Assembly: GCA_946534345.1 (NCBI GenBank)
Contig: CAMNCL010000005.1
Span: 435-64,434, forward strand
Direction: 5' to 3'
Source of the DNA: an uncultured Bacillales bacterium
GTDB taxonomy: Bacteria; Bacillota_I; Bacilli_A; RF39; UBA660
Length of the DNA: 64,000 nt
The first letter of the stretch is position 1; each line of letters opens with the position of its first letter. The position numbers and the translations under genes were made by a program. This document shows, piece after piece, positions 17,300 through 63,147 of this stretch. The notes beneath the pieces are model-generated. The model ran no database searches. It had not been told where the DNA came from and worked only from the letters and a program-made list of their open reading frames with translations.

Positions 17300-17422
17300 T
17301 ATAATCACTCCTATATTAATATAATAACATAAAAATTATTATTAATAATAGATATATTTACTCAATAATATATCTTTTTTTTTATAGCTTTTTCTTGTAT
17401 AATTATTTAAAGGAGAGTGAAT

Positions 17423-37651: not shown

Positions 37652-37745
37652 AAAATCACCCCTGTTTAAAAAGATGTATAGATTATACCACAAAAGTTAA
37701 AAAAAATAAAGTTTTTTATGTTATAATTTGGAAAAGGTGATTAAA

Positions 37746-47097: not shown

Positions 47098-47104
47098 ATC
47101 ACCT

Positions 47105-49784: not shown

Positions 49785-50630
49785 CTAGTCTTTATATTCA
49801 TATTTAGAACTTAATTTTTCTTCCAATAATTCTGGTTTGTTTGCTATTTCTTGAGCCATATTAACACTCTTAGCAAAATAGAAGCCATCTGCTATTCTCT
49901 CATCTAGAGTAAATGTTATATCTACCATTCTTTTACCATTAATTTTTTTAATAGTACCAATAGTAATAACAATTGAGTTAGTACCATATTCATTTAAATG
50001 ATGATAACAAGAATTAGATTTAATACTACCTAGATTACTAAATATAACAGTAGAATAATTAGTATCTCCTTCAGTAATAAATTTAGGATTCCAACCATGT
50101 CTATCTAAGAATTTAACAAATTTAACTATTAATCCTAATAACCATTTAGGTAGATTAGTGAATATTTTTAATGTATCATCAAAATCATTCTTACCTTCAT
50201 TTTTTGATTTAAACACATCAATTGCCATTTTATGACTCATATCTAAAGCATTATCTTTAGGATCTAATTCTAGACAAATAATTTTTTCATCAGCATTATC
50301 AGTCATTTTATCTTTAGCGATGAATGCAAAAGTAATCTTATCTCTTTCATATAATCTTTTGTTTTGAATAAATCTATTTAATCTATTACGATTAAAAAAT
50401 ACCTTTCCAAAGCAAGCTAAAATTGCATGAAAATAAGTCATTTTATACTCTAAATTACCACTTTTATTTTGTTTATCTACCCAAGAACATAATTCTTCTA
50501 AATCAAAATCTATTGTGCTTGAGACTTCAGCTTGTGTTCTTTTATCAAATATAAATGGAAATAATACTGCGATTGAGCCTTGTGGTTTAATATATTTTCC
50601 ATCTCTTCTATCTTTACTAAATAATCCCAT
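49785..50630 (-). CDS. 2-oxoacid dehydrogenase E2 catalytic-domain-like (CAT-fold) acyltransferase homologue
   Basis: 281 aa with no lipoyl domain. The C-terminal LDERIADGFYFAKS aligns with the DHRxxDG active-site motif, with Glu in place of His. Confidence 0.5.
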   Translation of the reverse strand: MGLFSKDRRDGKYIKPQGSIAVLFPFIFDKRTQAEVSSTIDFDLEELCSWVDKQNKSGNLEYKMTYFHAILACFGKVFFNRNRLNRFIQNKRLYERDKITFAFIAKDKMTDNADEKIICLELDPKDNALDMSHKMAIDVFKSKNEGKNDFDDTLKIFTNLPKWLLGLIVKFVKFLDRHGWNPKFITEGDTNYSTVIFSNLGSIKSNSCYHHLNEYGTNSIVITIGTIKKINGKRMVDITFTLDERIADGFYFAKSVNMAQEIANKPELLEEKLSSKYEYKD

Positions 50631-50671
50631 AGTATCACCTTTTTCATTATAACAAAAAAGTAGAGAAATCT

Positions 50672-51739
50672 CTACTTATATTCTTTCTTTACAGGAGCAA
50701 GTGCTGGTTTATTTTGTTTATTTGTAACTATCCAAGCATTTGATACAGTTCTTCCTCCATATTCAGCTCCAGCTGATGGTCTATTCCATAGTTTACCTTC
50801 AATACTCATAGTAGAAGATGCTCCACCATCTAAGTTAGCAGCATTATATGCTTTATATCTTACTAAGATATCAATAACATCATTTAATGTAGCTCCTACA
50901 CTATATCCTGGTAATCTACCTTCAATAATTAGGAATAATACTACTCCATCTTTTCTTTGAGCAATTACACTACGAGGTGCAGTTCCCCAACCACCATCAC
51001 CATGGATCTTACTAGTTTTACCATTAACTATTAAGAATGGTCCAAATTCTACTGCAGCTTCCATTCCATTCGCAATAGCTTCTTTTGGAGTTTCATAAGT
51101 TAAATACATTTTATGATCTTTAGTGAAACCAATTAATCCTCCAGATCCACCAGAATGAGTCCAGATAAGTTTACTATCTTGAATAATAGCTCCATATGGA
51201 ATAGAACCATTACCCCAACCATCTAAATCTTCAAATCCTCCACCATTAATACCTACTAAAGCATCATTATTAAGAACTAATTTATTAACAGATTGACCGG
51301 CTTTACCAAGTTTATTACTAACAGCTAATTCAACATTACTAGGATCATAAATACCTATTAACCAACCCTTAAACTTAGGTTCATTTATTCTAATAGTTTT
51401 ATAAATATCATTACCTTTATCTTTAGTAAATAACTCTCTTTCATATTTATTAGAATAATGTTTCTTAGTACCATCACTAATAACTATATCATCTAAATTA
51501 ATCTTTTCAGTATTCTTTTCAATATAGTTTTCACTCATAACTTTATTAACTACATCTTCATCATATAAAGTATAAGCTAAATATTTGTGAGACATAGTAG
51601 TCATTGCGGTAGGTATCCAAAAACTCTTAAATCTATAATTATGAATAACTAATAATCCTGCAATAACTGATAAGTCTAAGAAAAAGACAAATACCGTAAA
51701 TAAACTAATTTTTAAACGAATTTTTCTTTTCTTTTTCAT
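50672..51739 (-). CDS. phosphodiester glycosidase (NAGPA-like) family protein, membrane anchored, paralogue 1
   Basis: GINGGGFED, FGPFLIVNGK and APRSVIAQRKDGVVLFLIIEGR...AANLDGGASSTM match the NAGPA/DUF2233-type family. Confidence 0.75.
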   Translation of the reverse strand: MKKKRKIRLKISLFTVFVFFLDLSVIAGLLVIHNYRFKSFWIPTAMTTMSHKYLAYTLYDEDVVNKVMSENYIEKNTEKINLDDIVISDGTKKHYSNKYERELFTKDKGNDIYKTIRINEPKFKGWLIGIYDPSNVELAVSNKLGKAGQSVNKLVLNNDALVGINGGGFEDLDGWGNGSIPYGAIIQDSKLIWTHSGGSGGLIGFTKDHKMYLTYETPKEAIANGMEAAVEFGPFLIVNGKTSKIHGDGGWGTAPRSVIAQRKDGVVLFLIIEGRLPGYSVGATLNDVIDILVRYKAYNAANLDGGASSTMSIEGKLWNRPSAGAEYGGRTVSNAWIVTNKQNKPALAPVKKEYK

Positions 51740-51743
51740 TCAT

Positions 51744-53090
51744 TCACCCCATTATATATGGATTATCAACAGTTCCTTTTCCATCTTTTATAATATTTTT
51801 ATTGATTGTAATAACTGGAATAATATGTTTTTCTTCAGTAATTTCTTCTTCAGCTATTAATCCATTCTTAAATTTAATATATTGAAGATCACCTTGATAA
51901 GTATTTATTAAATAAATATCATCAAAATTATTATCGTCATAATCAAACATGTTTAATAAACCAACTTTACAATTAACTTTATCTTTATAAATATTATTAT
52001 ATGAATAACCCGCTTCTATACTTAATTCTCCTATATAATAATCATTATTTATAATTGAATCTTTATAACTTAAACTATTTAAATAACTATTGTTTAAATA
52101 TACTGCTAGTCCATTCCAATCTTCTAAATCAAATGACTTTTCTTTCTTACTAAATCTATATTTAAACTCTTTATTATCTACTTTTATATAATCTGTCTTT
52201 ACTAATCTTAATAACTCATTATCTTCTTTATATACTTTCCAAGTATCATTACCTAGTTTAACAATAGAATTAATATAATTTGTATTTTTACCTTGATCAA
52301 TAGTATAAGGATTATCTACAGTACCATCTCCATATGCTGAAATAATATTCTTCTTTAGAGTTATTACTGCTCTTACACCATATCCACTTAAATTATCACT
52401 TTCTGATACTGTTCCATCATCTTCTACATATAATGTGGATTTATCACTATTTAAACCTAATATATAGAAGATTTTACCAGTATTTAAATAACTATTTTTT
52501 CCATTAGCTATTACATAATCATTAATACCTAATGTAGTAACATAAGAATCATATGTCTTTTTAGATTTAAGTACTTTATCATCCTTTAGGATATCTTCAG
52601 AGTATTTAGTCTTTACTAAGAATTTATCAATATTAGGAATAGTATTATAATAAATACCTGAATTTTCTTGATCAGTTTTATCTAACCAATTATTTAAATT
52701 AGATTTTAAATAAGTAGTATCTTCTCCCCACATAAATGACCCTACTGTATTATCTGTGATTAATTTAATAGAACCATCATTATTAATTCTTATAACTCGA
52801 TATAATCTATTTGCGAATCTTACATAATTATTATTAACATGGCCTTTAAAATAATGTCCTTCTTTATCTTGATGAAAGCCATCTCCAGTTGAGACTAATT
52901 TATTACTATTAATAATAACTTCAGATAGATTTTGATTATTACCTTCATGAGCTATATTTTGTTTACTATAATAATAGAGACTACGATATCCAAAATATAT
53001 TCCTATACCCATAACAATTAATAAACTAAATATATTGAATAAGAATTCTCCTCTAGTATATAGATGTCTTCGTTTATTTTTCTTTGCCAT
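51744..53090 (-). CDS. hypothetical single-pass membrane protein with two G-x-G-T-V-D-N-P-Y motifs
   Basis: It has an N-terminal TM helix and a large extracytoplasmic region. The motifs are GDGTVDNPYTI and GKGTVDNPYIMG, the second at the C-terminus. I moved the start to the ATG at 53090, after GGAGAA. Confidence 0.6.
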   Translation of the reverse strand: MAKKNKRRHLYTRGEFLFNIFSLLIVMGIGIYFGYRSLYYYSKQNIAHEGNNQNLSEVIINSNKLVSTGDGFHQDKEGHYFKGHVNNNYVRFANRLYRVIRINNDGSIKLITDNTVGSFMWGEDTTYLKSNLNNWLDKTDQENSGIYYNTIPNIDKFLVKTKYSEDILKDDKVLKSKKTYDSYVTTLGINDYVIANGKNSYLNTGKIFYILGLNSDKSTLYVEDDGTVSESDNLSGYGVRAVITLKKNIISAYGDGTVDNPYTIDQGKNTNYINSIVKLGNDTWKVYKEDNELLRLVKTDYIKVDNKEFKYRFSKKEKSFDLEDWNGLAVYLNNSYLNSLSYKDSIINNDYYIGELSIEAGYSYNNIYKDKVNCKVGLLNMFDYDDNNFDDIYLINTYQGDLQYIKFKNGLIAEEEITEEKHIIPVITINKNIIKDGKGTVDNPYIMG

Positions 53091-53177
53091 AATCATATTC
53101 TCCATCTTAAAAAATTATACCAAATAAAAAGAATAAGTACAAGACTTACTCTTCATTTTATATTCTTCTAAAATACA

Positions 53178-54224
53178 TTATTTAACTACCCAGAAGGTAG
53201 ACATATCTCTTAAACCATTAGATCCTCCAGCAACTGGAGTATTAATTATTTTATTATTAATTACTAGTTCGGATGAAGATCCACCATCTAAATTAGCAGC
53301 ATTATATGCACCATAATTTTCCATTACATCACATAAATCTACCATATCAGCACCAATACTTGTAGTTAGTCGACCATTTATTACTAAGAATAGTACTATT
53401 CCATCTTGTCTTTGTCCAATAGCAGTTCTAGGAGCTATTCCCCAACCACCATTACCACGAATGAAACTTCTTTTTCCATTAACTATTAAGAATGGTCCAA
53501 ACTCTACAGCATCACGAATACCCATACTCATTGCTTTTTCTTTACTCATGTTTCCTAAAACAAGTTTATTCTCATCAGTAAAACCAATAAATCCTCCACC
53601 CATACGAGCATCATAATAATCACTAACAACTTTTCCATTAGATATTACAGTTCCATGTGGAAGAGCTCCATTACTATTCCAATCAGGATCATAGAATCCT
53701 CCAGCATTCATTGCAATAATAGCCTTTTCTCTTTTACTAACTGTTAGAATAGATTCTCCAGCTACTCCTAACTTAGAAGTAGTTGCGATTGAAACTCTAG
53801 ATGGATCATAGATTGCGACTAAATAACCTTGATAACCCTTTCCAGAAATATTAATTAATTTGTATAAATCATTACCTGGGTCTTTAGATAATATTTCTTT
53901 CTCATACTTATTACGATAAATAGTAGTGGTATATTTTCTAAACTTAATCATATCTGGATTAGTAATTTCATCAACCTCAATAATACTATTTTGTTTTAAT
54001 ACTTTTTGAATATATTCATCACTATATAAAGCTGTAGCCAAATACTGATGAGACATAGTAGTCATAGCACTTGTAATCCAAAACTCTTTAAAACTATTAA
54101 TTGGTCCATAAAAAAGAAATAAAAAAACAGAAAAACCCAGAATATATGTTATACATATTCCAGCAATTACTTTTCTACCAAAAGGCCATCTATATTTATT
54201 TATTTTCTTTTTTTTATTAAACAT
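53178..54224 (-). CDS. phosphodiester glycosidase (NAGPA-like) family protein, membrane anchored, paralogue 2
   Basis: It has the same block structure as 50672..51739: MNAGGFYD, FGPFLIVNGK, APRTAIGQRQDGIVLFLVINGR...AANLDGGSSSEL. Confidence 0.75.
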   Translation of the reverse strand: MFNKKKKINKYRWPFGRKVIAGICITYILGFSVFLFLFYGPINSFKEFWITSAMTTMSHQYLATALYSDEYIQKVLKQNSIIEVDEITNPDMIKFRKYTTTIYRNKYEKEILSKDPGNDLYKLINISGKGYQGYLVAIYDPSRVSIATTSKLGVAGESILTVSKREKAIIAMNAGGFYDPDWNSNGALPHGTVISNGKVVSDYYDARMGGGFIGFTDENKLVLGNMSKEKAMSMGIRDAVEFGPFLIVNGKRSFIRGNGGWGIAPRTAIGQRQDGIVLFLVINGRLTTSIGADMVDLCDVMENYGAYNAANLDGGSSSELVINNKIINTPVAGGSNGLRDMSTFWVVK

Positions 54225-54226
54225 AA

Positions 54227-54793
54227 TTAGTCCTCTTTGCCTTCTATTTTATTATCTCCATTATAATCAATATAATCTCTTTTAGTCTTATATTTATCAA
54301 TAATTAAAGTAGATTTTTTACTTTCTTGATCTTTATTATATTTATCAACATTCTTATTATATACAGCAATATCCCCTACAAAATAATTATTTACTTGTTC
54401 ATAAATACTTTTATAATTAGAACATTTAGTATTAGTTTCCATATCAGGATAATATACATCTTTACATAAATCATTTAGCTTTAAAGTAGTCTTTTCTAAT
54501 TCATCAACTAAGTTTTCATAGTTAGATAGTTTTTCTTTTACTTTTTCATCATCTTTATAAAAAGTATCATAATAAACATTACTCAATACTTTATTGTATA
54601 ATTCATCTCTAACATTTTCAAAAACAGTTGTATTAGTACTTAACACTTCAAATTCATTATTGACAACTGATATTCTCTTTTGTGTTTCTAATCTATCTTC
54701 TTTTAAACCCAATACAAAAGAAGATACTCCTCCTGCCATTATCATTATAAAACTAAGTGTCATCAATACATGTGCTAGTTTAGTACCATTCAT
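54227..54793 (-). CDS. hypothetical single-pass membrane protein
   Basis: It has a TM helix (VLMTLSFIMIMAGGVSSFVLGL) followed by a helical Asn/Lys/Tyr-rich domain. I moved the start to the ATG at 54793 (MNGTK), after AGGTGA. Confidence 0.55.
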   Translation of the reverse strand: MNGTKLAHVLMTLSFIMIMAGGVSSFVLGLKEDRLETQKRISVVNNEFEVLSTNTTVFENVRDELYNKVLSNVYYDTFYKDDEKVKEKLSNYENLVDELEKTTLKLNDLCKDVYYPDMETNTKCSNYKSIYEQVNNYFVGDIAVYNKNVDKYNKDQESKKSTLIIDKYKTKRDYIDYNGDNKIEGKED

Positions 54794-54887
54794 ATTATCA
54801 CCTATATTAATTTTAACAAAGCATATGTAAAATGTACATAAATACAAAAAAAGAAAGAGCAAGTTTACTCTTTCCTTTACACATTAT

Positions 54888-55373
54888 TTACTTCACAATA
54901 TTCTTTCTTTCACTCTTAGATAGTTTCTCAATTGTATAATCTGTGGCATCTTGTAGACTTCCACCCTTAAATTGAGCAACTACTTTAGAACTATCTTCTG
55001 GTGAAATATCAGTATAATGAACTACTACTCCTTTTTCACCAAATTTTAATCTTAAATATCCTGAAGCTGATTCTTCTCCTTTGTTAGTTACAGTACACTC
55101 AATTCTACCTTCGCTTTCTGTACTATATACTGTAACATCAGTAATACAAATAGTATCTAAACAATGTTCTGCTTTTAATTCATCAGTAGATATTTCTTTT
55201 GTACCTGGAAGTTCAACTACCTTATCTTCAAAAATATATTCGTTACCCATATTTTCTACTTCATTTTGAAGTTTTTTACTAGTTAGAGCAACTATTATTA
55301 TAGCAAGTAAGAAGGCTAGAACAGTAGCGAACAGTATTAATGAATCTTTATTTTCTTTAACAAATTTTTCCAT
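54888..55373 (-). CDS. hypothetical single-pass membrane protein with small beta-rich ectodomain
   Basis: 161-aa ORF, 15 nt downstream of the giant pilin-like gene. It has a TM helix (LILFATVLAFLLAIIIVAL). Confidence 0.55.
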   Translation of the reverse strand: MEKFVKENKDSLILFATVLAFLLAIIIVALTSKKLQNEVENMGNEYIFEDKVVELPGTKEISTDELKAEHCLDTICITDVTVYSTESEGRIECTVTNKGEESASGYLRLKFGEKGVVVHYTDISPEDSSKVVAQFKGGSLQDATDYTIEKLSKSERKNIVK

Positions 55374-55388
55374 ATATTTTACCCCTTT

Positions 55389-58300
55389 CTAGTCTCTTAT
55401 TCTTACATAATTAACAGTATTTGATGGATTATAAATATAAGGACTATTTGCTGCTTCCATCTCAGATACTGGAATCTTTTTACCTGTTGGAGTAATTGTT
55501 GGATTACCAGAATATCCATCATAAGTAACGGAATATACAGCATAATAATCTTGTCCATCATAAGTAGTTGAGGTTAATAAATCAGTAACAGGAATAGATT
55601 CAGTACGAGGCATTGTTCTCTTTCTTAACCCAATTGCCATCATATATCTAACAGGTTGTCCACTTACTTCTGGATACTTAAAGCAATCAATAAATGAACA
55701 ATTCTTAGTAACTTCACTTGTTTCCTCTACTGTTATGTCATTACCATTAGCATCTTGTGATGTAATTTTTTTAGGACATAATTTTTCAGGTTTAAATCTA
55801 TCTTGATATTTCAATTTTTGTGTATATAAACCAACTATACCAGAAGTATCATATACTCTTTCTGATTTTAAAGCATCTTTATCATTAGGATCAGTTACTT
55901 CAGAAGCTTGAGCATAATAACACAATCCTGCAACTGTACCATTAGAACATGTACTTGCACTAATCTTTGTACCGGTAATACCTGTACCATCAGTTGTAGG
56001 AACTTGTTTATTTAAGAATGTAAAACTTCCTGCGCTTTCATCCTCTTCTATTTCAGCACAGTCATTAACAGTATGTCCTAATACAGGAGTTCCTTCAGAA
56101 ATATTTCCATAAGAATCTTGAACGAAAACATAATACTCTGTATATGTTGTTCCTACACCTTCCTCATCTACAAAGTATTGTAAATATTCATTTTTATCTT
56201 TAACATAATATACCATTCCTGAAGTAACATCATCTGCTGAAAAACCTTCTCCATTAGCTTTACCAACAAATTTTCCAGTACATTTACTCTTATTATTTTC
56301 TTGAGCAACGCATATTTTATAAGTGTCAAACTTATCATCAACATCAACACTAACTATTATTTTAGGTTTGTCTGGACTTGATCCAACAGCTTGTGTTACA
56401 CCTTCCGGTTCAGTAAAGTTTTCTTCTTCATCATCAACCAAACCATTATGATTGATATCTCTTCCCCATACTGCAGTATATGTAATTACATTTTGACTAT
56501 TGGCATTAGTGCCAGAAACATATTCTTCCACTACTGGATTCCAGTAAGAGAACACATAGTTATTATCTCTAGAGCTTGGTAGAGTAAGGCCTCCACTATA
56601 TTCAGTTGTTTCTCCCGCATATGGTGGCGTAGAATCACCCGCAGATAAATTAGAGAAAAGTGTTTTTCCTTCTACATTTTCTGTGAAATTACCATACCTT
56701 CTATTACCAGTATTACCAGTTACATATTTTACTGTATAAGTTCCAGTATCTTCACTTGGGTCAGTTGATGGGGTTGGCTCAGGTATATCCGTTCCTTCAC
56801 CTTCACCTTCATCGTTCATATCAATTTCTAATCCACCTTGGTATGTTGCAACAGCAGACTTAATAACTGGTGCTGTATCAGTATATAATTTATAAGTCTG
56901 TGCAGCCAAGTATTTACTTTGATCTGTTGATGTAACTTTTCCTAAACTATCTTTAATTCTTGCATATATAACAAAATCATGATTAGCTGATCTTGCATAT
57001 GATGCTGAATCCAATGTAATTGGATATTCATGATCATAAGTATAATCCATATAGTTTGTACATGCTATAGCACTATTTGCACTACTACTCTTTGCTCTAT
57101 AACATACTTGTACTTGTAAATTTAGTGGTAACTCATAATCATCAGTTGCGTCGACTTTATATTTAACATTTTTGGAATTGTAATATGTTGTAGATATTAC
57201 TTCACCTGCTTCATTTTTCTCTTCATAAGGTGCTACTGTTGATTCTACTGATATAGAATCTTCAACAATTGTAGGAGCTTCATTTTTGTAAACAGTATAC
57301 TCTTGTGAAACACGTGTAGTAGATTCTTCTGAGTCCATAGCATATACGTATAAAGTATGTTTAGAACCATCATAAACATTATTAATACTTTTTCCTATAT
57401 TAAATTCAAAAGTCTTTTCTGCTTCAGTAAATTTAGAATATCTAAAATACTTTCCATCTAATATACAGTCATGTACATATTCTTTAGCAGAAGTCTTTGT
57501 AGATGTACAAACTTGCTTTCTCTCACATTTACTAGCATCCTCAGTTAAACATATTAATAAATCGTCTAAATCAGGATCTTCTGAATCAATATCATCTTCT
57601 ATATCAAAATCAACTGTAACATTAGGATTTCCACTATTTAAATAAGGACAAGTATAATTAGCATGACAGTTTCCAGTTTTTGGAGTTATTTTAAAGTATC
57701 CTGTTCTTACTTCTTCTTCATCAGGAATTCCATTTCCATCTACATCTTCTTTATATTCTGCAACATAAACAATTTCACATTGGTTAGTATCCGTAGCATT
57801 AACAGATCCACAATTAGTTCTAGTAGCCATCTCAGCTTGAATAGTATCTGATAAATAAGGTTTCCATCTAGTAAATACCCAACCTTGTTGAGCTTTTGGC
57901 TTTTCAAACACTTGAGGTTCTACAGGCACTGTAGGTTCTTCAGAAGTACCTTCACCATCTTCACCAGTTTCAGGTTCTGGTTCATCCTGCTTTTCAACAT
58001 ATATTGATTTATCTCCAGCAAATTCTGGTGTTGTTGTATCTAAAGAACATCCTCTAAATAATGTTTTCCCTTCTTCACCTTCTATGAAATCACCATGTTC
58101 ACCTTTCATATACTTAACTGTGAATTTTTCATCTGCATCAGGAATATTATTCTCATTTCTATCATCTTCATGTGCTTCATCAAATTCAAATGGCTGATCA
58201 TCTACTTCTGCTGCAGGTGTACCCATAGCAAAAATTGTAGGTGGTTGATTAGCATATAATTTGTAAGTTGCCTCTAAATTTTTTGTAGCTTCATTATATG

Positions 58301-60551
58301 TATCATATACTTCTAAAACTATTTTTTTAGTTTTACCATCATGTTTACCAGGTATACGATATTCTATTCCAGATTCGTTGTTCTCAACTTTTTTAAATGT
58401 ATTATCTTGATACTCAACAGCTCCTGATTCACTAAGTATTTTAACTTTATATCTTAAATCGTCTACTTTATCAATATCATCCTTAACATTAAAGAATATT
58501 CTTGTATCCAATGAACCAGTAACTGTGTAAGACTTTGATTCTGATTTTACTTCATAGTTTGTAACTGCTGGTGCTTTATTTTTGTATAGCTTATAAGTAA
58601 CTTTATTACCAGTAGTAGCATCATAATTTGTACTACCATTACTATCTTTAGCAATAATGTAAAGTGTTTTAGTTGTACCATCATATGGAGCTGTAGTTTT
58701 ATTCTTATTGAATACATATTCATGTCCACTTACATAATTTGAGAATGGTTCAAAATTAGCAGTATTTTCAGGTCTACAGTCTGCTTTATTTTCTGACATA
58801 CAAACTTTTATTTTTCTTTCAATATCATCGTAATCTAGGTCATCATCAACAGCAAAAGAAACTGTTGCCTTTTGATTACCACCTGAACTTAAAGGACATT
58901 GTTCTTCATCATTACAAGCAAACCCATTACTCTCTACATTAATATTTGATAATACCGGAGGTTTATTTTGATATACTTTATATGCTTTAGTAACATCTTT
59001 ATAAACTCCACATTCATCAGTAAGTCTTACTGTTATATTTCTATTTTGTCCATCATATTGACCATTAATAGTAAATGGAGTTTCTGCACTTGTATCTAGC
59101 ATATCTAATTTCTTAGTAGTACTATTAGGTTCTTTTATCTCTACTTTAATTTTAGAGTTAGTTGAAACATCATCAGAGCCAACTGTTTTAACTCGAATAT
59201 TTAAACTTCCAGAAGTAACTGAATTATCCATAAATGCTTCTTTTTCAGAAGTTATTGTTACTGAATCTATTACAGGTGGATTATTTTTAGCTATAGTATA
59301 ACTAAAGACATTTTCTTTATTTATTAATCCCTTTGTATCTCTAACAAATACTCTAACATTTTTTGTTTGACCATTCATAACACATTCATTTGACTCAAAA
59401 GAATATAACATTTCATTATCTTCTTCAAACAAATCTCTATAAGGCTTATAATCTTTGCAGGTTTCTTCGCTAGTATTTTCATTGAAACATACTTCAAGAT
59501 TTCTATAATCATCAATATCATCAGAAACACTTAGTCTGAAGACTGCAGTTGGTCTATTAACTTTATCACCTACCTGTTTAGAGAAACCTGATTCTTCTTT
59601 AACAACTGTAGGTGCCCCATTTTCATGAAGTCTATAAACTATATTAGTACGGTCTTCATTTTTTTCCTTATCTCGAACAACTATAAATAAATTTACTATT
59701 GAATTATTTTCATAATTGAAATTATATGGTTTTTGATCAAAATTAAACTTTTTTGTGAAAGAATTGTTTATACCATAAGATTCACCAGTACATGTAGCAC
59801 ATAAAGCATCACTATAACTAGTTGTAGATATATATACCTTTAAAGAACTACCAGGAGAATCTTCATCTTCAACTGTTAATGTTAATGTTGCGTCTAGTGA
59901 ATTGAATGGTTTTCCTGATGTAGAAGTCAAAGTAGCTTTAGTAATAACTGGTGGTTCTAATCCTCCAGAAGATGCATCATCATCTAATTTAGGTTCATTG
60001 TATACTTTTTCAATTGAATCTACATATTGACCACCTAATCTACCATTAATATAAGTAGAATTATCAAAATGCGAATCATCAGTTACTTTAACTATATAAT
60101 TAATACCCTTTACGTACTTAGAAGCCGCATTTCTTTCATGTAATTTGGAACTGCTAGTCAATTCTATTCCTTTGTAGCCACCCTTTGGCATTTTTTCAAC
60201 TATTGCTCCAGAGTATTCTAATCTACCTCCATCGTTTTTAACAACTACATATGAGGCTTCTTTAACATATTCTCCTCTATTAGGCGCTGTATCAAAATCA
60301 CTATCATCTAAATAAACCAAACTGATTACAATACAATTTCCATCAGAAGGTTTTTCGATATCTGTATTTGCCGCTTTCATTTTATACTCTGCTTGAGCCA
60401 TTAGTTTTTGAACATCAGTAACATACATTTTATCTCTATTGCTACCTACCATTCCAGTAATCGCTGGTGCAGCAAACATAAAAATAATTCCTAATATTAC
60501 TATTGTTGCCAAAAGCTCAATTAATGTAAAACCTTTATTACCCTTTTTCAT
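55389..60551 (-). CDS. giant modular type IV pilin/pseudopilin-like surface protein (1720 aa)
   Basis: The N-terminus MKKGNKG|FTLIELLATIVILGIIFMFAAPAI is a prepilin cleavage/methylation signal with Glu at +5. About 8 repeated acidic modules end in Y-x-x-Y-x-N-x-P-P-x-I/V. Two Flg_new-like inserts are at nt ~57708..58127 and ~56421..56741. The C-terminal domain is Cys-rich. Confidence 0.8.
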   Translation of the reverse strand: MKKGNKGFTLIELLATIVILGIIFMFAAPAITGMVGSNRDKMYVTDVQKLMAQAEYKMKAANTDIEKPSDGNCIVISLVYLDDSDFDTAPNRGEYVKEASYVVVKNDGGRLEYSGAIVEKMPKGGYKGIELTSSSKLHERNAASKYVKGINYIVKVTDDSHFDNSTYINGRLGGQYVDSIEKVYNEPKLDDDASSGGLEPPVITKATLTSTSGKPFNSLDATLTLTVEDEDSPGSSLKVYISTTSYSDALCATCTGESYGINNSFTKKFNFDQKPYNFNYENNSIVNLFIVVRDKEKNEDRTNIVYRLHENGAPTVVKEESGFSKQVGDKVNRPTAVFRLSVSDDIDDYRNLEVCFNENTSEETCKDYKPYRDLFEEDNEMLYSFESNECVMNGQTKNVRVFVRDTKGLINKENVFSYTIAKNNPPVIDSVTITSEKEAFMDNSVTSGSLNIRVKTVGSDDVSTNSKIKVEIKEPNSTTKKLDMLDTSAETPFTINGQYDGQNRNITVRLTDECGVYKDVTKAYKVYQNKPPVLSNINVESNGFACNDEEQCPLSSGGNQKATVSFAVDDDLDYDDIERKIKVCMSENKADCRPENTANFEPFSNYVSGHEYVFNKNKTTAPYDGTTKTLYIIAKDSNGSTNYDATTGNKVTYKLYKNKAPAVTNYEVKSESKSYTVTGSLDTRIFFNVKDDIDKVDDLRYKVKILSESGAVEYQDNTFKKVENNESGIEYRIPGKHDGKTKKIVLEVYDTYNEATKNLEATYKLYANQPPTIFAMGTPAAEVDDQPFEFDEAHEDDRNENNIPDADEKFTVKYMKGEHGDFIEGEEGKTLFRGCSLDTTTPEFAGDKSIYVEKQDEPEPETGEDGEGTSEEPTVPVEPQVFEKPKAQQGWVFTRWKPYLSDTIQAEMATRTNCGSVNATDTNQCEIVYVAEYKEDVDGNGIPDEEEVRTGYFKITPKTGNCHANYTCPYLNSGNPNVTVDFDIEDDIDSEDPDLDDLLICLTEDASKCERKQVCTSTKTSAKEYVHDCILDGKYFRYSKFTEAEKTFEFNIGKSINNVYDGSKHTLYVYAMDSEESTTRVSQEYTVYKNEAPTIVEDSISVESTVAPYEEKNEAGEVISTTYYNSKNVKYKVDATDDYELPLNLQVQVCYRAKSSSANSAIACTNYMDYTYDHEYPITLDSASYARSANHDFVIYARIKDSLGKVTSTDQSKYLAAQTYKLYTDTAPVIKSAVATYQGGLEIDMNDEGEGEGTDIPEPTPSTDPSEDTGTYTVKYVTGNTGNRRYGNFTENVEGKTLFSNLSAGDSTPPYAGETTEYSGGLTLPSSRDNNYVFSYWNPVVEEYVSGTNANSQNVITYTAVWGRDINHNGLVDDEEENFTEPEGVTQAVGSSPDKPKIIVSVDVDDKFDTYKICVAQENNKSKCTGKFVGKANGEGFSADDVTSGMVYYVKDKNEYLQYFVDEEGVGTTYTEYYVFVQDSYGNISEGTPVLGHTVNDCAEIEEDESAGSFTFLNKQVPTTDGTGITGTKISASTCSNGTVAGLCYYAQASEVTDPNDKDALKSERVYDTSGIVGLYTQKLKYQDRFKPEKLCPKKITSQDANGNDITVEETSEVTKNCSFIDCFKYPEVSGQPVRYMMAIGLRKRTMPRTESIPVTDLLTSTTYDGQDYYAVYSVTYDGYSGNPTITPTGKKIPVSEMEAANSPYIYNPSNTVNYVRIRD

Positions 60552-60565
60552 AATACATCCTCCAA

Positions 60566-61447
60566 TTATTTTCTAAAAATTATTAATTTACTAGCTAAAT
60601 AATTAAATATGATAACTAAAATATTAGCTATTATTTTGGAGATAGTTTCATTCATATCTAGAATATCTATCATAACAAACATAGATCCAGTATCACATAC
60701 AACAAAAGATACAATTCTAAATATAATAAAACTTAGACATTCTTTAAGCATTGCTTTTTTGCTATTGCTTTTTTTATCAAAAACATATAGTTTGTTTGTA
60801 ACATAAGCAAATAAAACAGCTACACACCAAGCGATTGTATTACTTAAATATAATTCAACCCCAAAATATCGTAATAAGCAAAAAGCAAAAATATTTAACA
60901 GTGTTGTACATCCTCCAAAGAATAAATATAAAATAACTTCTTTATAGCGATTATACCAAGATGTACTGTTCGTATTTTCTATATAATTCTCTAATAATTT
61001 TATCATATTTTGTGTATTACTTACAAACTTTTTTGGCTTAAATTTATTAATTTTTTTAATTATTTTTCCCAATTCATCAAAATCTTCTAATTCAACAATA
61101 TAACCTTGCTTAGTAAACTCACCAATAATTTGTTTTTGATGATCATTATGATGCTCTTTATACTTTGCTAATCTAGCGGCTGCAATAACCTTTTTATTCT
61201 TTTTTATAGCAGATAAAATACTTCCAACCCCACCATGAGTAATTACTAGGTTGGCTTCATCCATTAACTTTTCAAATTCTGGTGCTGGTAATAAATCAAA
61301 TATTTCCATATTAGGAGATGAATACTTAGTTTGTCCTGCTTGAACAACAACTTTTTCTTTTATATCTCCATTGTCAATCGCCCTATCAACTGCTTTTAAT
61401 AATCTGGAAAAATCTTTATCTTGAGTTCCTAAAATAACTAATATCAT
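60566..61447 (-). CDS. Alg13-like glycosyltransferase subunit (Glyco_tran_28_C, PssE/Cps14G-like) fused to a GtrA-like membrane domain
   Basis: The N-terminal half carries MILVILGTQDKDF ... VITHGGVGSILSAI. The C-terminal ~125 aa have 4 TM helices with YLFFGGCTTLLNIFAF ... VTNKLYVF, which is GtrA-like. The start ATG at 61447 overlaps the upstream stop (TAATG). Confidence 0.75.
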   Translation of the reverse strand: MILVILGTQDKDFSRLLKAVDRAIDNGDIKEKVVVQAGQTKYSSPNMEIFDLLPAPEFEKLMDEANLVITHGGVGSILSAIKKNKKVIAAARLAKYKEHHNDHQKQIIGEFTKQGYIVELEDFDELGKIIKKINKFKPKKFVSNTQNMIKLLENYIENTNSTSWYNRYKEVILYLFFGGCTTLLNIFAFCLLRYFGVELYLSNTIAWCVAVLFAYVTNKLYVFDKKSNSKKAMLKECLSFIIFRIVSFVVCDTGSMFVMIDILDMNETISKIIANILVIIFNYLASKLIIFRK

Positions 61448-61923
61448 TAGTAAATCCACCCCCCAAATTCTGCATCAGGGTATAGATCCTTCATACTTTC
61501 CCATTGAACAATAAATTTATCTGCAATAGGATATATCAATTTACCTGTCGCAGTTTTAGTAACCATATTCGCAAATGTTTCTATATAGATTATCTTAGTT
61601 CCAAATATTTTACCAATACAGCACATTGGCCCAGCAGTATGAACACCAGTAGTAATTATATAATCTGGTCTAAATTTCAAATAATAATACAAACTAATAA
61701 AACAATTTGCTAATAATTTAAAGGGATACGAAAAGATATGGTGTTTTGTTCCATAGATTAAAAATCTTACTCGGTCACCATATTTTTTCTTTAAATATAG
61801 ATTAGACTTAGTCTTTTCAGTAATTAAAGAATAATCATATTTCTTAAACATCTTTTCTAGCTGTAATAATTCATTTAAATGTCCACCAGTTGAAGAAATA
61901 AACATAACTCTTCTTTTAGTCAT
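61447..61923 (-). CDS. Alg14-like glycosyltransferase membrane-anchor subunit (PssD/Cps14F-like)
   Basis: ~158 aa. VMFISSTGGHLNELLQL and ITTGVHTAGPMC motifs are present. It pairs with the Alg13-like gene. Confidence 0.75.
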   Translation of the reverse strand: MTKRRVMFISSTGGHLNELLQLEKMFKKYDYSLITEKTKSNLYLKKKYGDRVRFLIYGTKHHIFSYPFKLLANCFISLYYYLKFRPDYIITTGVHTAGPMCCIGKIFGTKIIYIETFANMVTKTATGKLIYPIADKFIVQWESMKDLYPDAEFGGWIY

Positions 61924-63064
61924 AAATATCACTCTCTTCTATTAGTGTAATCCATTCTTCTCCAACTATATCACTTGTGTATTTCTTCACACTATTTCTA
62001 GCTTGTTTACCAATTCTTATTCTTTCACTTTTATTATTAATTAAATCTTCTATTTTCATTATCATAGCATCAAAATTTCGATTTTTAATTAAATAACCAT
62101 TATCTCCACTATTTATAATTTCTCTTGCTCCTTCTGCAGAATCAAATGCAATACAAGGAACACCATGACTCATAGCTTCAATCAATACAATTCCAAATGA
62201 TTCAGTATATGATGTCATCAAGTAAATAGCAGAATCATCTAGTATTTTATCAATATAATCTTTTCCTTGAAAACCATGAAGTATAACTTTACCATTAAGA
62301 TTATTATCTTCAATATACTTCTTTAATTTGTCTTTTTGTACCCCATCTCCAATAATATCTAGAACCCAATCAGGATTCTTTTTACTTAAACGATTAAATA
62401 TTTTAAGTAAATCCAAATAACCTTTTTCAGGAGATAGTCTTCCTACAGAAACAAGTCTTTTATTAGTCAAGGTTGCACTTTTTTTAGGTAATTTATCAAT
62501 AGAATTAGGTATGTATATACACATACAATTACTATTACGTAATTTTTCAGCATAGAATTTTTGTAACTCAGAAGAAACTAATACTAAATAATCTAAGTTC
62601 TTTGCACTATTAGATACTTTTTCTGCATACTTCATATTTTCATGGAAATGATTATGTTCCCATCCAATTTTTAAAATTCCATCCTGACAATAACCACTTA
62701 CCCAATAATTAAAAATATCTCTAGTTGAAATAATTACATCACAATCAGTATTCCTTATATAATCAACCATTGTTTTTTTTCGATAATATAAGACTTTTGT
62801 AGAAAATATTAATTCTCTTATAATTTTAATAATATTTTTACTCTTTAAAGCATTTCTTAAAGATTCATGATTTGGCTTCAAATTCTTATTTAAATATTTT
62901 ACTTTTACTTTATCTTTTAATTCAAAAACACTATTATCATAAAGCTTGTAACATACAGCTATTTCTACTTCATATTTTTCACACAAGGTATTGGCCAAAT
63001 TAACAACACACTTTTCAATTCCTCCATACCCTAAATGTAAGGCTAAAATAGAGATTTTTTTCAT
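61916..63064 (-). CDS. glycosyltransferase family 4 (GT-B, Glycos_transf_1)
   Basis: 382 aa. VGRLSPEKGYLDLLKIF and SYTESFGIVLIEAMSHGVPCIAFDSAEGAREII form the EX7E region. Confidence 0.9.
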   Translation of the reverse strand: MKKISILALHLGYGGIEKCVVNLANTLCEKYEVEIAVCYKLYDNSVFELKDKVKVKYLNKNLKPNHESLRNALKSKNIIKIIRELIFSTKVLYYRKKTMVDYIRNTDCDVIISTRDIFNYWVSGYCQDGILKIGWEHNHFHENMKYAEKVSNSAKNLDYLVLVSSELQKFYAEKLRNSNCMCIYIPNSIDKLPKKSATLTNKRLVSVGRLSPEKGYLDLLKIFNRLSKKNPDWVLDIIGDGVQKDKLKKYIEDNNLNGKVILHGFQGKDYIDKILDDSAIYLMTSYTESFGIVLIEAMSHGVPCIAFDSAEGAREIINSGDNGYLIKNRNFDAMIMKIEDLINNKSERIRIGKQARNSVKKYTSDIVGEEWITLIEESDIYD

Positions 63065-63081
63065 ATTATCACCCTATTCAT

Positions 63082-63109
63082 ATTATAGCATTATTTATTA
63101 TTAATTCAA
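63082..63109 (-). promoter_or_regulatory. sigma-A-type promoter of the glycosyltransferase/giant-pilin block
   Basis: The minus strand has TTGAAT (63109..63104), a 16-nt spacer and TATAAT (63087..63082), followed by AGGGTGA and the GT4 ATG. Confidence 0.5.
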
Positions 63110-63122
63110 AGAAAATACAAAT

Positions 63123-63147
63123 AAAAAAAGCATTCATAGAATGCTTT
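63123..63147 (-). terminator. rho-independent terminator after the Pro/Ala/Met-rich gene
   Basis: Minus strand reads AAAGCAUUC-UAU-GAAUGCUUU followed by U7. Confidence 0.65.

What the first reader, a model, noticed from the sequence alone, without database searches (positions are those of the whole stretch)
49785..63109. A 13-kb same-strand block couples the giant pilin to GT4, Alg14, Alg13::GtrA and duplicated phosphodiester glycosidases, with no pilus machinery
Seen in sequence: downstream of a TTGAAT-16-TATAAT promoter the genes run head to tail on the minus strand, with overlaps or short gaps. The order is GT4 glycosyltransferase, Alg14-like, Alg13-like fused to a GtrA-like 4-TM domain (TAATG overlap), then a 15-nt gap and the giant pilin-like gene. 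After that come two single-pass membrane proteins, NAGPA-like glycosidase 1, a 453-aa single-pass protein with two GxGTVDNPY motifs, NAGPA-like glycosidase 2, and a CAT-fold E2-like acyltransferase homologue. No PilB/PilC/PilD/PilMNO or sortase gene lies in the window. Established knowledge: Alg13/Alg14-type pairs (PssE/PssD, Cps14G/F) and GtrA proteins act on lipid-linked sugars. NAGPA-type enzymes cleave sugar-1-phosphodiester caps. Inference: this locus may build and remodel a glycan, possibly phosphodiester-linked, on or around the giant pilin-like fibre. I do not recognise that combination as a described system.
Basis: inference. Interest (0 to 1): 0.65.

Follow-up and report, generated by a model that had tools for sequence, protein, structure and literature searches.

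The report
Giant pilin inserted in wall-glycan operon
In a group of uncultured rumen and gut bacteria, a very large pilin-like surface-protein gene sits inside an older, highly conserved set of cell-envelope sugar enzymes; related bacteria have the same enzymes without any pilin, so the enzymes are probably not a dedicated pilin-decorating system.

Summary
The described genes are all present at the stated coordinates, and the domain assignments hold. Exceptions are small: the last gene is only a weak CAT-fold match, and same-strandness means nothing here because 51 of 55 ORFs are on the minus strand.

The block is conserved: 13 of 14 giant-pilin homologues with known context carry it, down to 27% pilin identity. 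Anchoring the search on Alg13::GtrA changes the reading. Of 54 informative loci, 31 have a giant pilin, 4 have a short pilin of 179-215 aa, 14 have a PgfS-like GT2 in the same slot, and 5 have nothing. All but one short locus keep the 188-aa protein and NAGPA.

The enzymes are 64-80% identical across the clade, the pilin and its 161-aa partner only 34-38%. A paralogous giant pilin lacks the enzymes. A conserved terminator-like hairpin and promoter-like element separate pilin+p161 from the NAGPA genes. No Wzy_C O-oligosaccharyltransferase domain was found among the 46 window ORFs scanned, no other family was recognised as a GT-C transferase, and homology searches found no pilus machinery or sortase anywhere in the window.

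Best reading: an ancestral envelope-glycan locus with a pilin cassette inserted at the 3' end of its glycosyltransferase operon. Dedicated pilin glycosylation is possible but unsupported.

The parts
63127..63147 (-). Terminator-like hairpin plus T-run ending the upstream Pro/Ala-rich membrane-protein gene. It marks the 5' boundary of the block.
   Evidence: The equivalent stretch was read in 7 related loci; most show a palindrome plus T-run by eye, but these were not folded.
63082..63109 (-). Promoter of transcription unit 1 (TTGAAT-16-TATAAT with TG; extended -10 element TGnTATAAT).
   Evidence: TGnTATAAT is conserved about 20 nt upstream of the GT4 start codon in the window and all 7 related loci read.
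61916..63064 (-). GT4 (GT-B fold) glycosyltransferase, 382 aa, with no predicted TM segment.
   Evidence: Pfam Glycos_transf_1, 151 bits. It matches only generic GT4 NCBIfam models, all below their cut-offs. Median identity to orthologues is 69%.
61447..61923 (-). Alg14/PssD/Cps14F-like half of a split glycosyltransferase, 158 aa, with no TM segment.
   Evidence: Pfam Alg14, 57 bits. NCBIfam PssD scores 164.8 against a cut-off of 110. No TM segment predicted. Median identity 80%.
60566..61447 (-). Alg13/PssE/Cps14G-like catalytic half fused to a GtrA/DPMS-type 4-TM domain, 293 aa. Its start overlaps the Alg14 stop codon (TAATG).
   Evidence: PssE 137.5 against a cut-off of 120; GtrA_DPMS_TM 80 bits. 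Four TM segments. The search found 1844 homologues, and the best 120 are 63-78% identical apart from the window's own sequence.
55389..60551 (-). Giant modular type IV pilin-like protein, 1720 aa. It has a class III signal peptide (KGFTLIELL), a pilin module of about 190 aa, about 7 Ig-like repeats carrying DD[IL]D motifs, two acidic/Pro/Thr linkers, and a Cys-rich C-terminal domain with no match in the PDB.
   Evidence: N_methyl/TIGR02532 matches. AF2 model of residues 1-560 has pLDDT 84.9, with a helix at 10-59, a beta domain and then beta-sandwich modules. The top Foldseek matches are SiiE and RTX-adhesin extender domains. The C-terminal model has no match at E<0.001. A GGAGG ribosome-binding site is present, and no conserved promoter of its own was found.
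54888..55373 (-). p161, a single-pass membrane protein with a beta-rich domain of about 110 aa and two conserved Cys. It is found only next to giant pilins.
   Evidence: Present after the giant pilin in most such loci that extend far enough, and after the paralogue P0011, but in none of the short-pilin, GT2 or empty loci. Its identity tracks that of the pilin (38% against 34% median). No Pfam or PDB match.
54849..54878 (-). Terminator-like hairpin (13 pairs) plus T-run, directly after the p161 stop codon.
   Evidence: A hairpin plus T-run lies at the same place in all 7 giant-pilin loci folded and in the 3 short-pilin loci folded, but only weak folds occur in the 3 of 4 GT2 loci folded and the one 'none' locus L134.
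54810..54819 (-). Promoter-like extended -10 element (TTGTTAAAAT) of transcription unit 2, upstream of the AGGTG ribosome-binding site of p188.
   Evidence: The TGnTA(A/G)AAT - ATAGGTG(A/G)TA block is conserved in 6 of the 7 loci compared; L086 has a shorter gap without it.
54227..54793 (-). p188 (listed as a 211-aa ORF running to 54862), a single-pass, mostly helical membrane protein. It always sits directly upstream of NAGPA.
   Evidence: Start as called. Present in pilin, GT2 and empty loci alike. Only weak coiled-coil or LemA-like Pfam hints. Median identity 60%.
53178..54224 (-). NAGPA-type phosphodiester glycosidase 1. It has an N-terminal TM anchor and an extracytoplasmic catalytic domain with DGGSS at residue 313.
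   Evidence: Pfam NAGPA, 143 bits. Matches to NAGPA and DUF2233 chains in the PDB. The best 120 homologue clusters are 79-89% identical. Motif position.
51744..53105 (-). p453, a single-pass protein with two weak DUF6273-like modules, each ending in GxGTVDNPY. The start codon may instead be at 53090.
   Evidence: DUF6273 matches 4 of 16 orthologues, best E=0.0019. It is found only in pilin-type loci, plus L155. Similar modules are fused to pilins in L064 and L068.
50672..51739 (-). NAGPA-type phosphodiester glycosidase 2 (DGGAS at residue 304), TM-anchored.
   Evidence: Pfam NAGPA, 137 bits. Motif. A second copy occurs only where p453 occurs. Median identity 78%.
50658..50677 (-). Bidirectional terminator-like hairpin at the end of NAGPA2. 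It marks the 3' boundary of the conserved block.
   Evidence: Downstream genes differ between relatives: PFOR directly, a metallophosphoesterase, or the SBP-VWA..TelA cassette.
49785..50630 (-). p281, a weak CAT/E2-fold protein with DERIADG in place of the DHRxxDG motif. It is not part of the conserved block.
   Evidence: At this position it is found only in the closest relatives (L004, L158). In L114 and L026 it follows an Mgs-like GT4 instead.

Best explanation
The block is a composite of two things.

(1) An ancestral, vertically inherited cell-envelope glycan locus. It belongs to a clade of uncultured low-GC Bacilli whose related contigs carry cell-wall and sporulation genes. It always lies between an RluA-type pseudouridine synthase gene and, in most relatives, the PFOR gene.
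- Transcription unit 1 has an extended -10 promoter. It encodes a soluble GT4 and a split MurG/Alg13-Alg14-type transferase.
- In that split enzyme the membrane anchor is a GtrA/DPMS-type 4-TM domain fused to the Alg13 half. The Alg14 half has no TM segment, the reverse of the arrangement I recall for eukaryotes.
- Inferred: these enzymes extend a polyprenyl-phosphate-linked sugar at the cytoplasmic face of the membrane.
- Transcription unit 2 encodes a helical single-pass protein (p188) and membrane-anchored, extracytoplasmic NAGPA-type glycosidases.
- Inferred: these cleave a sugar-1-phosphodiester, for example a GlcNAc-1-P cap or linkage, in a wall- or membrane-associated glycoconjugate.

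(2) A pilin cassette inserted at the 3' end of unit 1. It occupies exactly the slot that holds a PgfS/GtrB-like GT2 in sister lineages.
- The cassette is a pilin module of about 190 aa. In most lineages it has grown by 600-1500 aa of SiiE-like, probably Ca-binding, Ig repeats plus a novel tip domain. It comes with a co-evolving partner (p161) and its own terminator.
- The pilin has a strong ribosome-binding site and no recognisable promoter of its own, so it is probably transcribed from the glycosyltransferase promoter.
- Processing and assembly must depend on a prepilin peptidase and type IV filament machinery encoded elsewhere.

Shown: gene content, order, spacing, alternative slot states, evolutionary rates, conserved regulatory elements, and the pilin and Ig folds. 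Inferred: substrates, topology of the reactions, co-transcription, and any functional cross-talk between the glycan and the pilin.
For: - Domain assignments are above curated cut-offs.
- The full block is seen in 16 further loci, with pilin identity of 27-52%. Contexts were read.
- Scan anchored on Alg13::GtrA: among 54 loci with at least 2.5 kb downstream, 31 have a giant pilin, 4 a short pilin, 14 a GT2 and 5 nothing in the slot. GT2 and pilin never occur together. p188 and NAGPA are kept in all four states, except in the short locus L156.
- The GT2 is PgfS-like: NF047588 at 291 bits, full length but below the cut-off of 500. GT2-type loci also carry a polysaccharide deacetylase.
- Median identities to the window are NAGPA1 79, Alg14 80, NAGPA2 78, GT4 69 and Alg13::GtrA 64, against pilin 34 and p161 38. 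The best 120 NAGPA1 clusters are 79-89% identical.
- The paralogue P0011 plus p165 plus a 1013-aa pilin has none of the enzymes.
- The downstream boundary varies while the block stays intact.
- TGnTATAAT lies upstream of GT4 in the window and all 7 related loci read. A hairpin plus T-run follows the pilin/p161 in all 10 pilin-type loci folded, and a TGnTAAAAT-like element lies before p188 in 6 of the 7 giant-pilin loci compared.
- There is no conserved internal promoter before the pilin gene, and GGAGG is always present.
- Pilin fold and SiiE-like repeats.
- TM predictions.
Against: - The pilin gene has stayed 0-17 nt downstream of Alg13::GtrA across a deep clade. p453 and the second NAGPA are found only where the slot holds, or recently held, a pilin. 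Both facts are equally compatible with a real functional link.
- The neighbour-joining tree of Alg13::GtrA puts both pilin-type and GT2-type loci in at least two clades each, so the direction and number of slot changes are unresolved.
- No initiating phosphoglycosyltransferase, flippase, polymerase or LCP ligase was seen in the window, so the glycan product is unknown.
- Promoters and terminators are predictions only.
- The 54 loci are not de-replicated. For example, L086/L087, L092/L093 and L134-136 are near-duplicates.
Confidence: 0.6

Rival explanations
1. Dedicated pilin glycosylation. The GT4/Alg14/Alg13::GtrA enzymes build a lipid-linked glycan that is transferred to the pilin, to its module or its acidic/Thr-Pro linkers. 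The NAGPA enzymes then trim a sugar-1-phosphate cap on the fibre.
For: - The pilin lies in the same predicted transcription unit as the three GT genes, with a 14-nt gap and no hairpin between them.
- This arrangement is kept in 35 of 54 loci.
- p453 plus the second NAGPA co-occur with the pilin.
- In sister loci the slot holds a PgfS-like GT2. That enzyme class feeds extracytoplasmic protein O-glycosylation in streptococci, where the pgf cluster also encodes its adhesin substrates (PMC12041528).
Against: - The enzymes plus p188 and NAGPA occur without a pilin in 19 of 54 loci.
- The paralogous giant pilin lacks them.
- The enzymes evolve far more slowly than the pilin.
- No Wzy_C-type OTase, the domain present in all known PglL/PglS/TfpO/TfpM enzymes (PMC9829042), and no family I recognise as a YfhO/GT-C transferase was found among the 46 window ORFs scanned.
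- A conserved terminator-like hairpin separates the pilin from the NAGPA genes.
- The linkers are acidic rather than poly-Ser/Thr.
Confidence: 0.17
2. Wall-passage or wall-anchoring helper. The envelope glycan and the NAGPA/p188/p453 proteins locally remodel a phosphodiester-linked wall polymer, so that the very long pilin can cross the thick wall or be held in it. The link is functional but not covalent.
For: - The NAGPA proteins, p188, p453 and p161 each have one predicted TM segment near the N-terminus, so the bulk of each is probably extracytoplasmic.
- p453 and the second NAGPA were gained only in pilin-type loci.
- p453-like modules are fused to pilins in other MAGs, L064 and L068.
- From my own knowledge, wall polymers in Firmicutes are attached to peptidoglycan through GlcNAc-1-P phosphodiesters.
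Against: - There is no direct evidence.
- NAGPA1 and p188 are just as conserved in pilin-free genomes.
- L155 keeps p453 and a second NAGPA without a pilin.
Confidence: 0.13
3. Neutral hitch-hiking. The pilin cassette landed downstream of a strong constitutive promoter and is kept there only for expression, with no relation of any kind to the glycan.
For: - There is a strong, conserved extended -10 promoter, and the pilin has no conserved promoter of its own.
- The slot is variable: GT2, pilin, short pilin or empty.
- The cassette carries its own terminator.
Against: This overlaps the best explanation and differs only in excluding any cross-talk. The co-gain of p453 and NAGPA2 argues mildly against pure neutrality.
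Confidence: 0.1

Closest known systems
PssD/PssE - Cps14F/Cps14G split (Alg14/Alg13-like) glycosyltransferases of exopolysaccharide and capsule loci
   Same: Two adjacent genes encode the Alg14-like and Alg13-like halves. Both score above NCBIfam's curated equivalog cut-offs.
   Different: The Alg13 half is fused to a GtrA/DPMS 4-TM domain, and the Alg14 half has no TM segment. No family typical of a priming transferase, Wzx, Wzy or chain-length regulator was recognised among the 46 window ORFs scanned. The locus is invariant and housekeeping-like rather than strain-variable.
Streptococcus mutans pgf cluster (PgfS, PgfM1, PgfE, PgfM2) with embedded adhesin genes cnm/cnaB/cbpA (PMC5856776, PMC12041528)
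   Same: A surface-adhesin gene is embedded among envelope glycosylation genes. Sister loci carry a PgfS-like GT2 in the pilin's slot.
   Different: The window has no PgfS, no epimerase and no YfhO/GT-C transferase that I could recognise. Here the adhesin is a pilin, not an LPXTG protein. NAGPA enzymes are not listed among the four Pgf enzymes.
Pilin-specific O-glycosylation loci of Gram-negative bacteria (pilA-tfpO, PglS, TfpM, PglL)
   Same: Glycan-related genes lie adjacent to a type IV pilin gene.
   Different: All known enzymes of that kind carry a Wzy_C domain (PMC9829042). No such domain was found among the 46 window ORFs scanned.
Modular type IV pilins (S. sanguinis PilB/PilC; survey in PMC8179133)
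   Same: An N-terminal pilin module with functional modules grafted on. They are probably displayed at the filament tip.
   Different: This protein has 1720 aa, against the 860-aa 'most extreme case' reported in that survey. The extension is a SiiE/RTX-adhesin-like repeat stalk. No assembly genes lie nearby.
NAGPA (mannose-6-phosphate 'uncovering enzyme') and bacterial DUF2233 proteins
   Same: The same catalytic domain is present, and the Asp-Gly-Gly-x-Ser loop is kept.
   Different: The bacterial substrate is unknown. These copies are TM-anchored, have a conserved N-terminal domain of about 120 aa, and are paired with p188. Two full-text searches for the family turned up no paper that defines a function for a bacterial member.
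Giant Ca2+-binding repeat adhesins (SiiE, MpIBP, RTX adhesins)
   Same: Tandem Ig-like extender domains with acidic DDxD motifs. These are the best structural matches.
   Different: From my own knowledge, those adhesins are exported by type I secretion. Here the stalk hangs on a prepilin-type N-terminus.

Membership tests
Type IV pilin / type IV filament subunit | Class III signal peptide: short basic leader, Gly-1, Phe+1, Glu+5, then a hydrophobic stretch | tested here: met
   The sequence begins MKKGNKG|FTLIELLATIVILGIIF. Pfam N_methyl scores 28.2 (cut-off 21.2) and TIGR02532 scores 29.2 (cut-off 16.3).
Type IV pilin / type IV filament subunit | Long N-terminal alpha-helix packed on a beta-sheet (the pilin fold) | tested here: met
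   The AF2 model has a helix at 10-59 and a beta domain at 73-184, with pLDDT about 75-93. No Foldseek match to a pilin was obtained, because the Ig repeats dominate the search.
Type IV pilin / type IV filament subunit | Prepilin peptidase, assembly ATPase and platform protein encoded in the genome | not testable with these tools
   None was found in the window, and no PilB/PilT/PilC/PilD-type family appears in the Pfam listings of the related loci read within +/-10 kb. The rest of the genome could not be searched.
PssD/PssE (Cps14F/G) split glycosyltransferase | Adjacent Alg14-like and Alg13-like genes scoring above the family cut-offs | tested here: met
   NF041549 scores 164.8 against 110, and NF041548 scores 137.5 against 120.
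PssD/PssE (Cps14F/G) split glycosyltransferase | Embedded in a Wzx/Wzy-type EPS or CPS locus with a priming transferase | tested here: not met
   No family I recognise as a priming transferase, Wzx or Wzy appears among the 46 window ORFs scanned or in the Pfam listings of the syntenic loci read.
NAGPA / phosphodiester glycosidase | PF09992 domain above the gathering score | tested here: met
   136.9 and 143.1 bits against a cut-off of 25.
NAGPA / phosphodiester glycosidase | Invariant DGGGS loop with the catalytic Asp, plus a downstream Arg (human D286 and R316) | tested here: inconclusive
   DGGSS at residue 313 and DGGAS at residue 304. An Arg lies 26-27 residues downstream, but it was not aligned residue by residue to R316.
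NAGPA / phosphodiester glycosidase | Hydrolysis of a GlcNAc-1-phosphodiester | not testable with these tools
   This needs an enzyme assay.
Gtr/Pgf/CsbB-YfhO three-component extracytoplasmic glycosylation | GT2 polyprenyl-phosphate sugar synthase, plus a GtrA-type protein, plus a GT-C transferase | tested here: not met
   Only the GtrA-type domain is present in the window. The GT2 is present only in pilin-free sister loci. No GT-C family was recognised among the window ORFs scanned or in the Pfam listings of the syntenic loci read.
Pilin O-oligosaccharyltransferase loci (TfpO/PglS/TfpM/PglL) | Multi-TM enzyme with a Wzy_C domain next to, or acting on, the pilin | tested here: not met
   No Wzy_C match in the block or in the other window ORFs scanned, 46 in all. 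The defining feature is taken from PMC9829042.
CAT / 2-oxoacid dehydrogenase E2 acyltransferase (p281) | Family score above the cut-off and a catalytic His in the DHRxxDG motif | tested here: not met
   18.2 bits against a cut-off of 23. The motif reads DERIADG. The canonical motif is recalled from my own knowledge.

The most novel reading that the evidence does not exclude
The locus encodes an extracytoplasmic glycosylation or phosphoglycosylation route that needs neither a GT-C nor an OTase.

- A GtrA-anchored split Alg13/14 enzyme (with a PgfS-like GT2 in sister lineages) would supply a polyprenyl-phosphate-linked sugar. That compound is itself a sugar-1-phosphodiester.
- The highly conserved, membrane-anchored NAGPA-type enzymes with p188 would use or uncover it outside the membrane.
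- In the pilin-bearing subclade the pilin module would have been recruited as a substrate or carrier, with p453 and NAGPA2 as the added, pilin-specific arm.
Probability: 0.1. Interest if true: 0.75.

Novelty: new variant of a known kind. Interest (0 to 1): 0.42.

Why it matters
If the best reading is right, the practical lesson concerns annotation. In this clade, tight and conserved linkage of a surface-protein gene to glycan enzymes reflects insertion into a housekeeping operon. It does not indicate a dedicated modification system.

Three things remain worth follow-up.

1. An unusually conserved envelope module (79-89% identity for an extracytoplasmic NAGPA enzyme) has an unknown product. Two full-text searches for the family turned up no paper defining a function for any bacterial member, so this locus is a clean genetic handle on that question.
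2. One operon slot alternates between a PgfS-like lipid-sugar synthase and a pilin.
3. The pilins are twice the size of the largest noted in the 2021 survey of modular pilins. They are built like type-I-secreted giant adhesins but carry a prepilin N-terminus, in bacteria where pilin genes are scattered away from any assembly genes.

Tried and rejected
- PDB sequence searches for p453, p161 and p281 gave nothing significant.
- Pfam scans of 13-16 orthologues each gave only weak DUF6273 hints for p453, nothing consistent for p161, and coiled-coil noise for p188.
- The C-terminal tip domain of the pilin folds confidently but has no PDB match at E<0.001.
- Literature on bacterial NAGPA/DUF2233: 18 papers mention the terms and none of those turned up defines a bacterial function. 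The 2013 DUF2233 structure paper is not held.
- I looked for a conserved internal promoter in the last 170 nt before the pilin start codon and found none.
- I tried to polarise the slot change (pilin versus GT2) with a neighbour-joining tree of Alg13::GtrA. Each state falls in at least two clades and the rooting is arbitrary, so I draw no conclusion about direction.
- The genome-collection scan anchored on the pilin mostly returned unrelated short pilins that share only the N-terminal motif. Only L006 was an orthologue.
- I rejected the idea that p453 is a non-canonical pilin. Its N-terminus is a basic tail plus a TM segment, with no G/FxxxE motif.
- I rejected p281 as a block member.
- Whether the genome has PilB/PilC/PilD at all could not be tested.

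Full report
**Observation**

The window is low-GC DNA (about 27% G+C) with strong strand bias. Of 55 non-nested ORFs of at least 100 aa, 51 lie on the minus strand. That ten genes share a strand is therefore expected.

- GT4 at 61916-63064.
- An Alg14/PssD-like gene at 61447-61923.
- An Alg13/PssE-like gene fused to a GtrA/DPMS 4-TM domain at 60566-61447, starting in a TAATG overlap.
- A 14-nt spacer with a GGAGG ribosome-binding site.
- A 1720-aa protein with a textbook prepilin N-terminus at 55389-60551.
- Two single-pass proteins, then NAGPA, a 453-aa protein with two GxGTVDNPY motifs, a second NAGPA, and a 281-aa protein.

The PssD, PssE, NAGPA, GT4 and N_methyl matches all exceed curated cut-offs. 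The 281-aa 'CAT/E2-like' call does not. It scores 18 bits against a cut-off of 23, CAT chains give E~0.3, and the motif I recall as DHRxxDG reads DERIADG.

tblastn with a complete Bacillaceae PilB/T/C/D/M/N/O set, and with a sortase from a related contig, finds nothing in the window. Pfam scans of 46 of the window's ORFs show no Wzy_C domain and no family I recognise as a GT-C transferase. About ten mostly short ORFs were not scanned.

**The host**

Exact and close copies of these proteins come only from metagenome assemblies. Their records are labelled 'Bacilli bacterium' or 'uncultured Erysipelotrichaceae bacterium RUG12568', and their names point to rumen, sloth and human-gut samples. Related contigs carry FemAB, a PASTA kinase, SpoVA genes and a sortase. 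This is therefore a walled, spore-forming lineage.

**Synteny seen from the pilin**

The giant protein has 87 homologues of 1041-1720 aa. Fourteen of these clusters match a fetched locus at 96% identity or more. Thirteen sit in the same block and one (P0011) does not (contexts).

P0011 lies elsewhere on the same public contig, by coordinate arithmetic about 21 kb beyond the window's end. It is followed by a p161 homologue and a second, Cys-rich 1013-aa pilin, and it has none of the glycan genes.

The upstream flank is constant: an RlmI-like methyltransferase, an RluA-like pseudouridine synthase, and a Pro/Ala-rich TM protein. The downstream flank differs. PFOR follows directly in L089 and L090, and a metallophosphoesterase comes first in L088. 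In the window an SBP-VWA/Halogen_Hydrol/TelA cassette intervenes. So the unit from GT4 to NAGPA2 is kept while its surroundings move. The 281-aa gene is outside that unit.

**Synteny seen from the enzymes**

This is the decisive test. Alg13::GtrA has 1844 homologues at E<1e-10, and the best 120, apart from the window's own sequence, are 63-78% identical. A metagenome scan anchored on it returned 80 loci.

Among 54 loci with at least 2.5 kb downstream, the gene after Alg13::GtrA falls into four states:

| State of the slot | Loci |
|---|---|
| Giant pilin | 31 |
| Short pilin of 179-215 aa (just the pilin module) | 4 |
| GT2 of 312-338 aa | 14 |
| Nothing | 5 |

The counts are not de-replicated.

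- GT2 and pilin never occur together.
- The GT2 aligns over its full length to NCBIfam's PgfS model (291 bits, below the equivalog cut-off of 500). It therefore belongs to the GtrB/PgfS class of polyprenyl-phosphate sugar synthases (role of that class in PMC12041528).
- All states keep p188 followed by NAGPA, the only exception being L156, which has little sequence downstream.
- Most GT2-type loci add a polysaccharide deacetylase.
- p161 occurs only with giant pilins.
- p453 and the second NAGPA occur only in pilin-type loci, plus one locus (L155) that has no pilin.

**Evolutionary rates**

Across 16 loci with the full block, median identity to the window is as follows:

| Gene | Median identity (%) |
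|---|---|
| Alg14 | 80 |
| NAGPA1 | 79 |
| NAGPA2 | 78 |
| GT4 | 69 |
| Alg13::GtrA | 64 |
| p188 | 60 |
| p453 | 48 |
| p161 | 38 |
| Pilin | 34 |

NAGPA1's best 120 homologue clusters are 79-89% identical. The enzymes behave like core envelope genes. The pilin and p161 behave like a co-evolving, fast-changing surface pair.

**Transcription signals**

- A hairpin plus T-run ends the upstream gene in the window. A TGnTATAAT element then sits about 20 nt before the GT4 start in the window and in all seven related loci read.
- There is no hairpin and no conserved promoter-like motif before the pilin gene.
- Directly after the p161 stop codon (or after the short pilin) a hairpin plus T-run is present in all ten pilin-type loci folded, with different sequences but the same structure. 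In six of the seven giant-pilin loci compared it is followed by a conserved TGnTAAAAT...AGGTG block before p188.
- Three of the four GT2-type loci folded, and the 'none' locus L134, have only weak folds there (-5.7 to -7.0 kcal/mol). L163 folds more strongly.

The likely units are therefore GT4-Alg14-Alg13::GtrA-pilin-p161 and p188-NAGPA1-p453-NAGPA2. All of this is predicted, not measured.

**The pilin itself**

An AF2 model of residues 1-560 (pLDDT 84.9) shows a helix at 10-59, a beta domain to residue 184, a disordered linker, and then consecutive beta-sandwiches. The best PDB matches are the Ig-like domains of SiiE and the extender repeats of RTX adhesins.

Sequence repeats ending in Y-x-[LV]-Y-x-N-x-x-P, together with DD[IL]D motifs, mark about seven such modules. 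The last 330 residues fold confidently but match nothing in the PDB.

A 2021 survey of modular pilins cited an 860-residue protein as the most extreme case (PMC8179133).

**Interpretation**

The simplest account is an ancestral envelope-glycan locus with a pilin cassette inserted at the 3' end of its glycosyltransferase operon.
- Cytoplasmic assembly would be carried out by GT4 and a GtrA-anchored split Alg13/14 enzyme.
- Extracytoplasmic processing would be carried out by TM-anchored NAGPA enzymes with p188.

Co-transcription, the stable 0-17-nt spacing, and the co-gain of p453 and NAGPA2 all speak for some link. The S. mutans pgf cluster, which also embeds its adhesin substrates, is a precedent (PMC12041528).

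Four points weigh against it. The enzymes are independent of the pilin. The paralogous pilin is independent of the enzymes. No OTase or GT-C enzyme was recognised. And a terminator-like hairpin lies between the pilin and the NAGPA genes. I put it at about 0.17.

**Limits**

- The glycan product is unknown.
- The library searches turned up no paper that defines a function for any bacterial NAGPA/DUF2233 protein.
- Whether these genomes encode a prepilin peptidase and an assembly ATPase could not be checked.
- The direction of the pilin/GT2 slot change is unresolved.

Noticed in passing
Outside the window; L002:10001-17767 (the same public contig; by coordinate arithmetic about 21 kb beyond window position 64000): A second giant-pilin locus. 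It holds a 1397-aa paralogue (P0011), a p161-like 165-aa protein, and a 1013-aa N_methyl protein with a very Cys-rich C-terminus. It lies between rpe and tex. In L006 a 1013-aa pilin sits directly upstream of GT4.
   Followed up: partly
window 37728-39002 (+): One of the few plus-strand genes. It encodes a 424-aa protein with about 8 predicted TM segments and no Pfam match even at E<=0.05. It lies directly beside PFOR.
   Followed up: partly
window 44119-48718 (-): A cassette of an SBP-VWA fusion protein, a Halogen_Hydrol (5-bromo-4-chloroindolyl phosphate hydrolysis) protein, a 403-aa membrane protein and TelA. It lies between the block and PFOR here but is absent at that place in L088-L090. 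Three of these genes (not TelA) lie 3 kb downstream of two short pilin genes in L078.
   Followed up: partly
window 63146-63997 (-), running off the window end: A conserved membrane protein (N-terminal FDLxWFTTxPG plus a TM segment) with a long, locally GC-rich Pro/Ala repeat (MPE[VM]APA[VA]EP). Its length varies from 208 to 412 aa between relatives. It always sits just upstream of GT4.
   Followed up: partly
L088:17013-17996, L089:15528-16523, L092:18686-19705, L124:13531-13917: A small or medium membrane protein matching Pfam T4SS_pilin (29.6 bits against a cut-off of 26.6 in L089). It sits between NAGPA and p453 in most relatives but is missing from the window. L106 has a 77-aa ORF that looks like a remnant.
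   Followed up: no
L045:6733-17494; also L023, L030, L073: Other low-GC Bacilli MAGs carry tandem arrays of pilin genes: five genes of about 685 aa in L045, and three or four short ones elsewhere. No assembly ATPase lies within 10 kb, except in L030.
   Followed up: no
L087:1-13507: The GT4-Alg14-Alg13-pilin segment appears twice in inverted orientation on one 19-kb contig. This is probably an assembly artefact.
   Followed up: no
window 24532-28306 (-): Two adjacent, slightly overlapping genes for hybrid histidine kinases of about 630 aa. Each has about 6 TM segments, an HATPase domain and a receiver domain.
   Followed up: no
window 14327-17308 (-): A 993-aa protein whose only Pfam match is a 75-residue stretch of the adenosine deaminase family.
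   Followed up: no
L114:14246-15883, L026:16796-18812: Homologues of the window's 281-aa DERIADG protein directly follow a GT4. In L114 that GT4 is Mgs-like (monoglucosyl-diacylglycerol synthase, 119 bits). This hints that p281 belongs to a glycolipid module rather than to the pilin block.
   Followed up: partly
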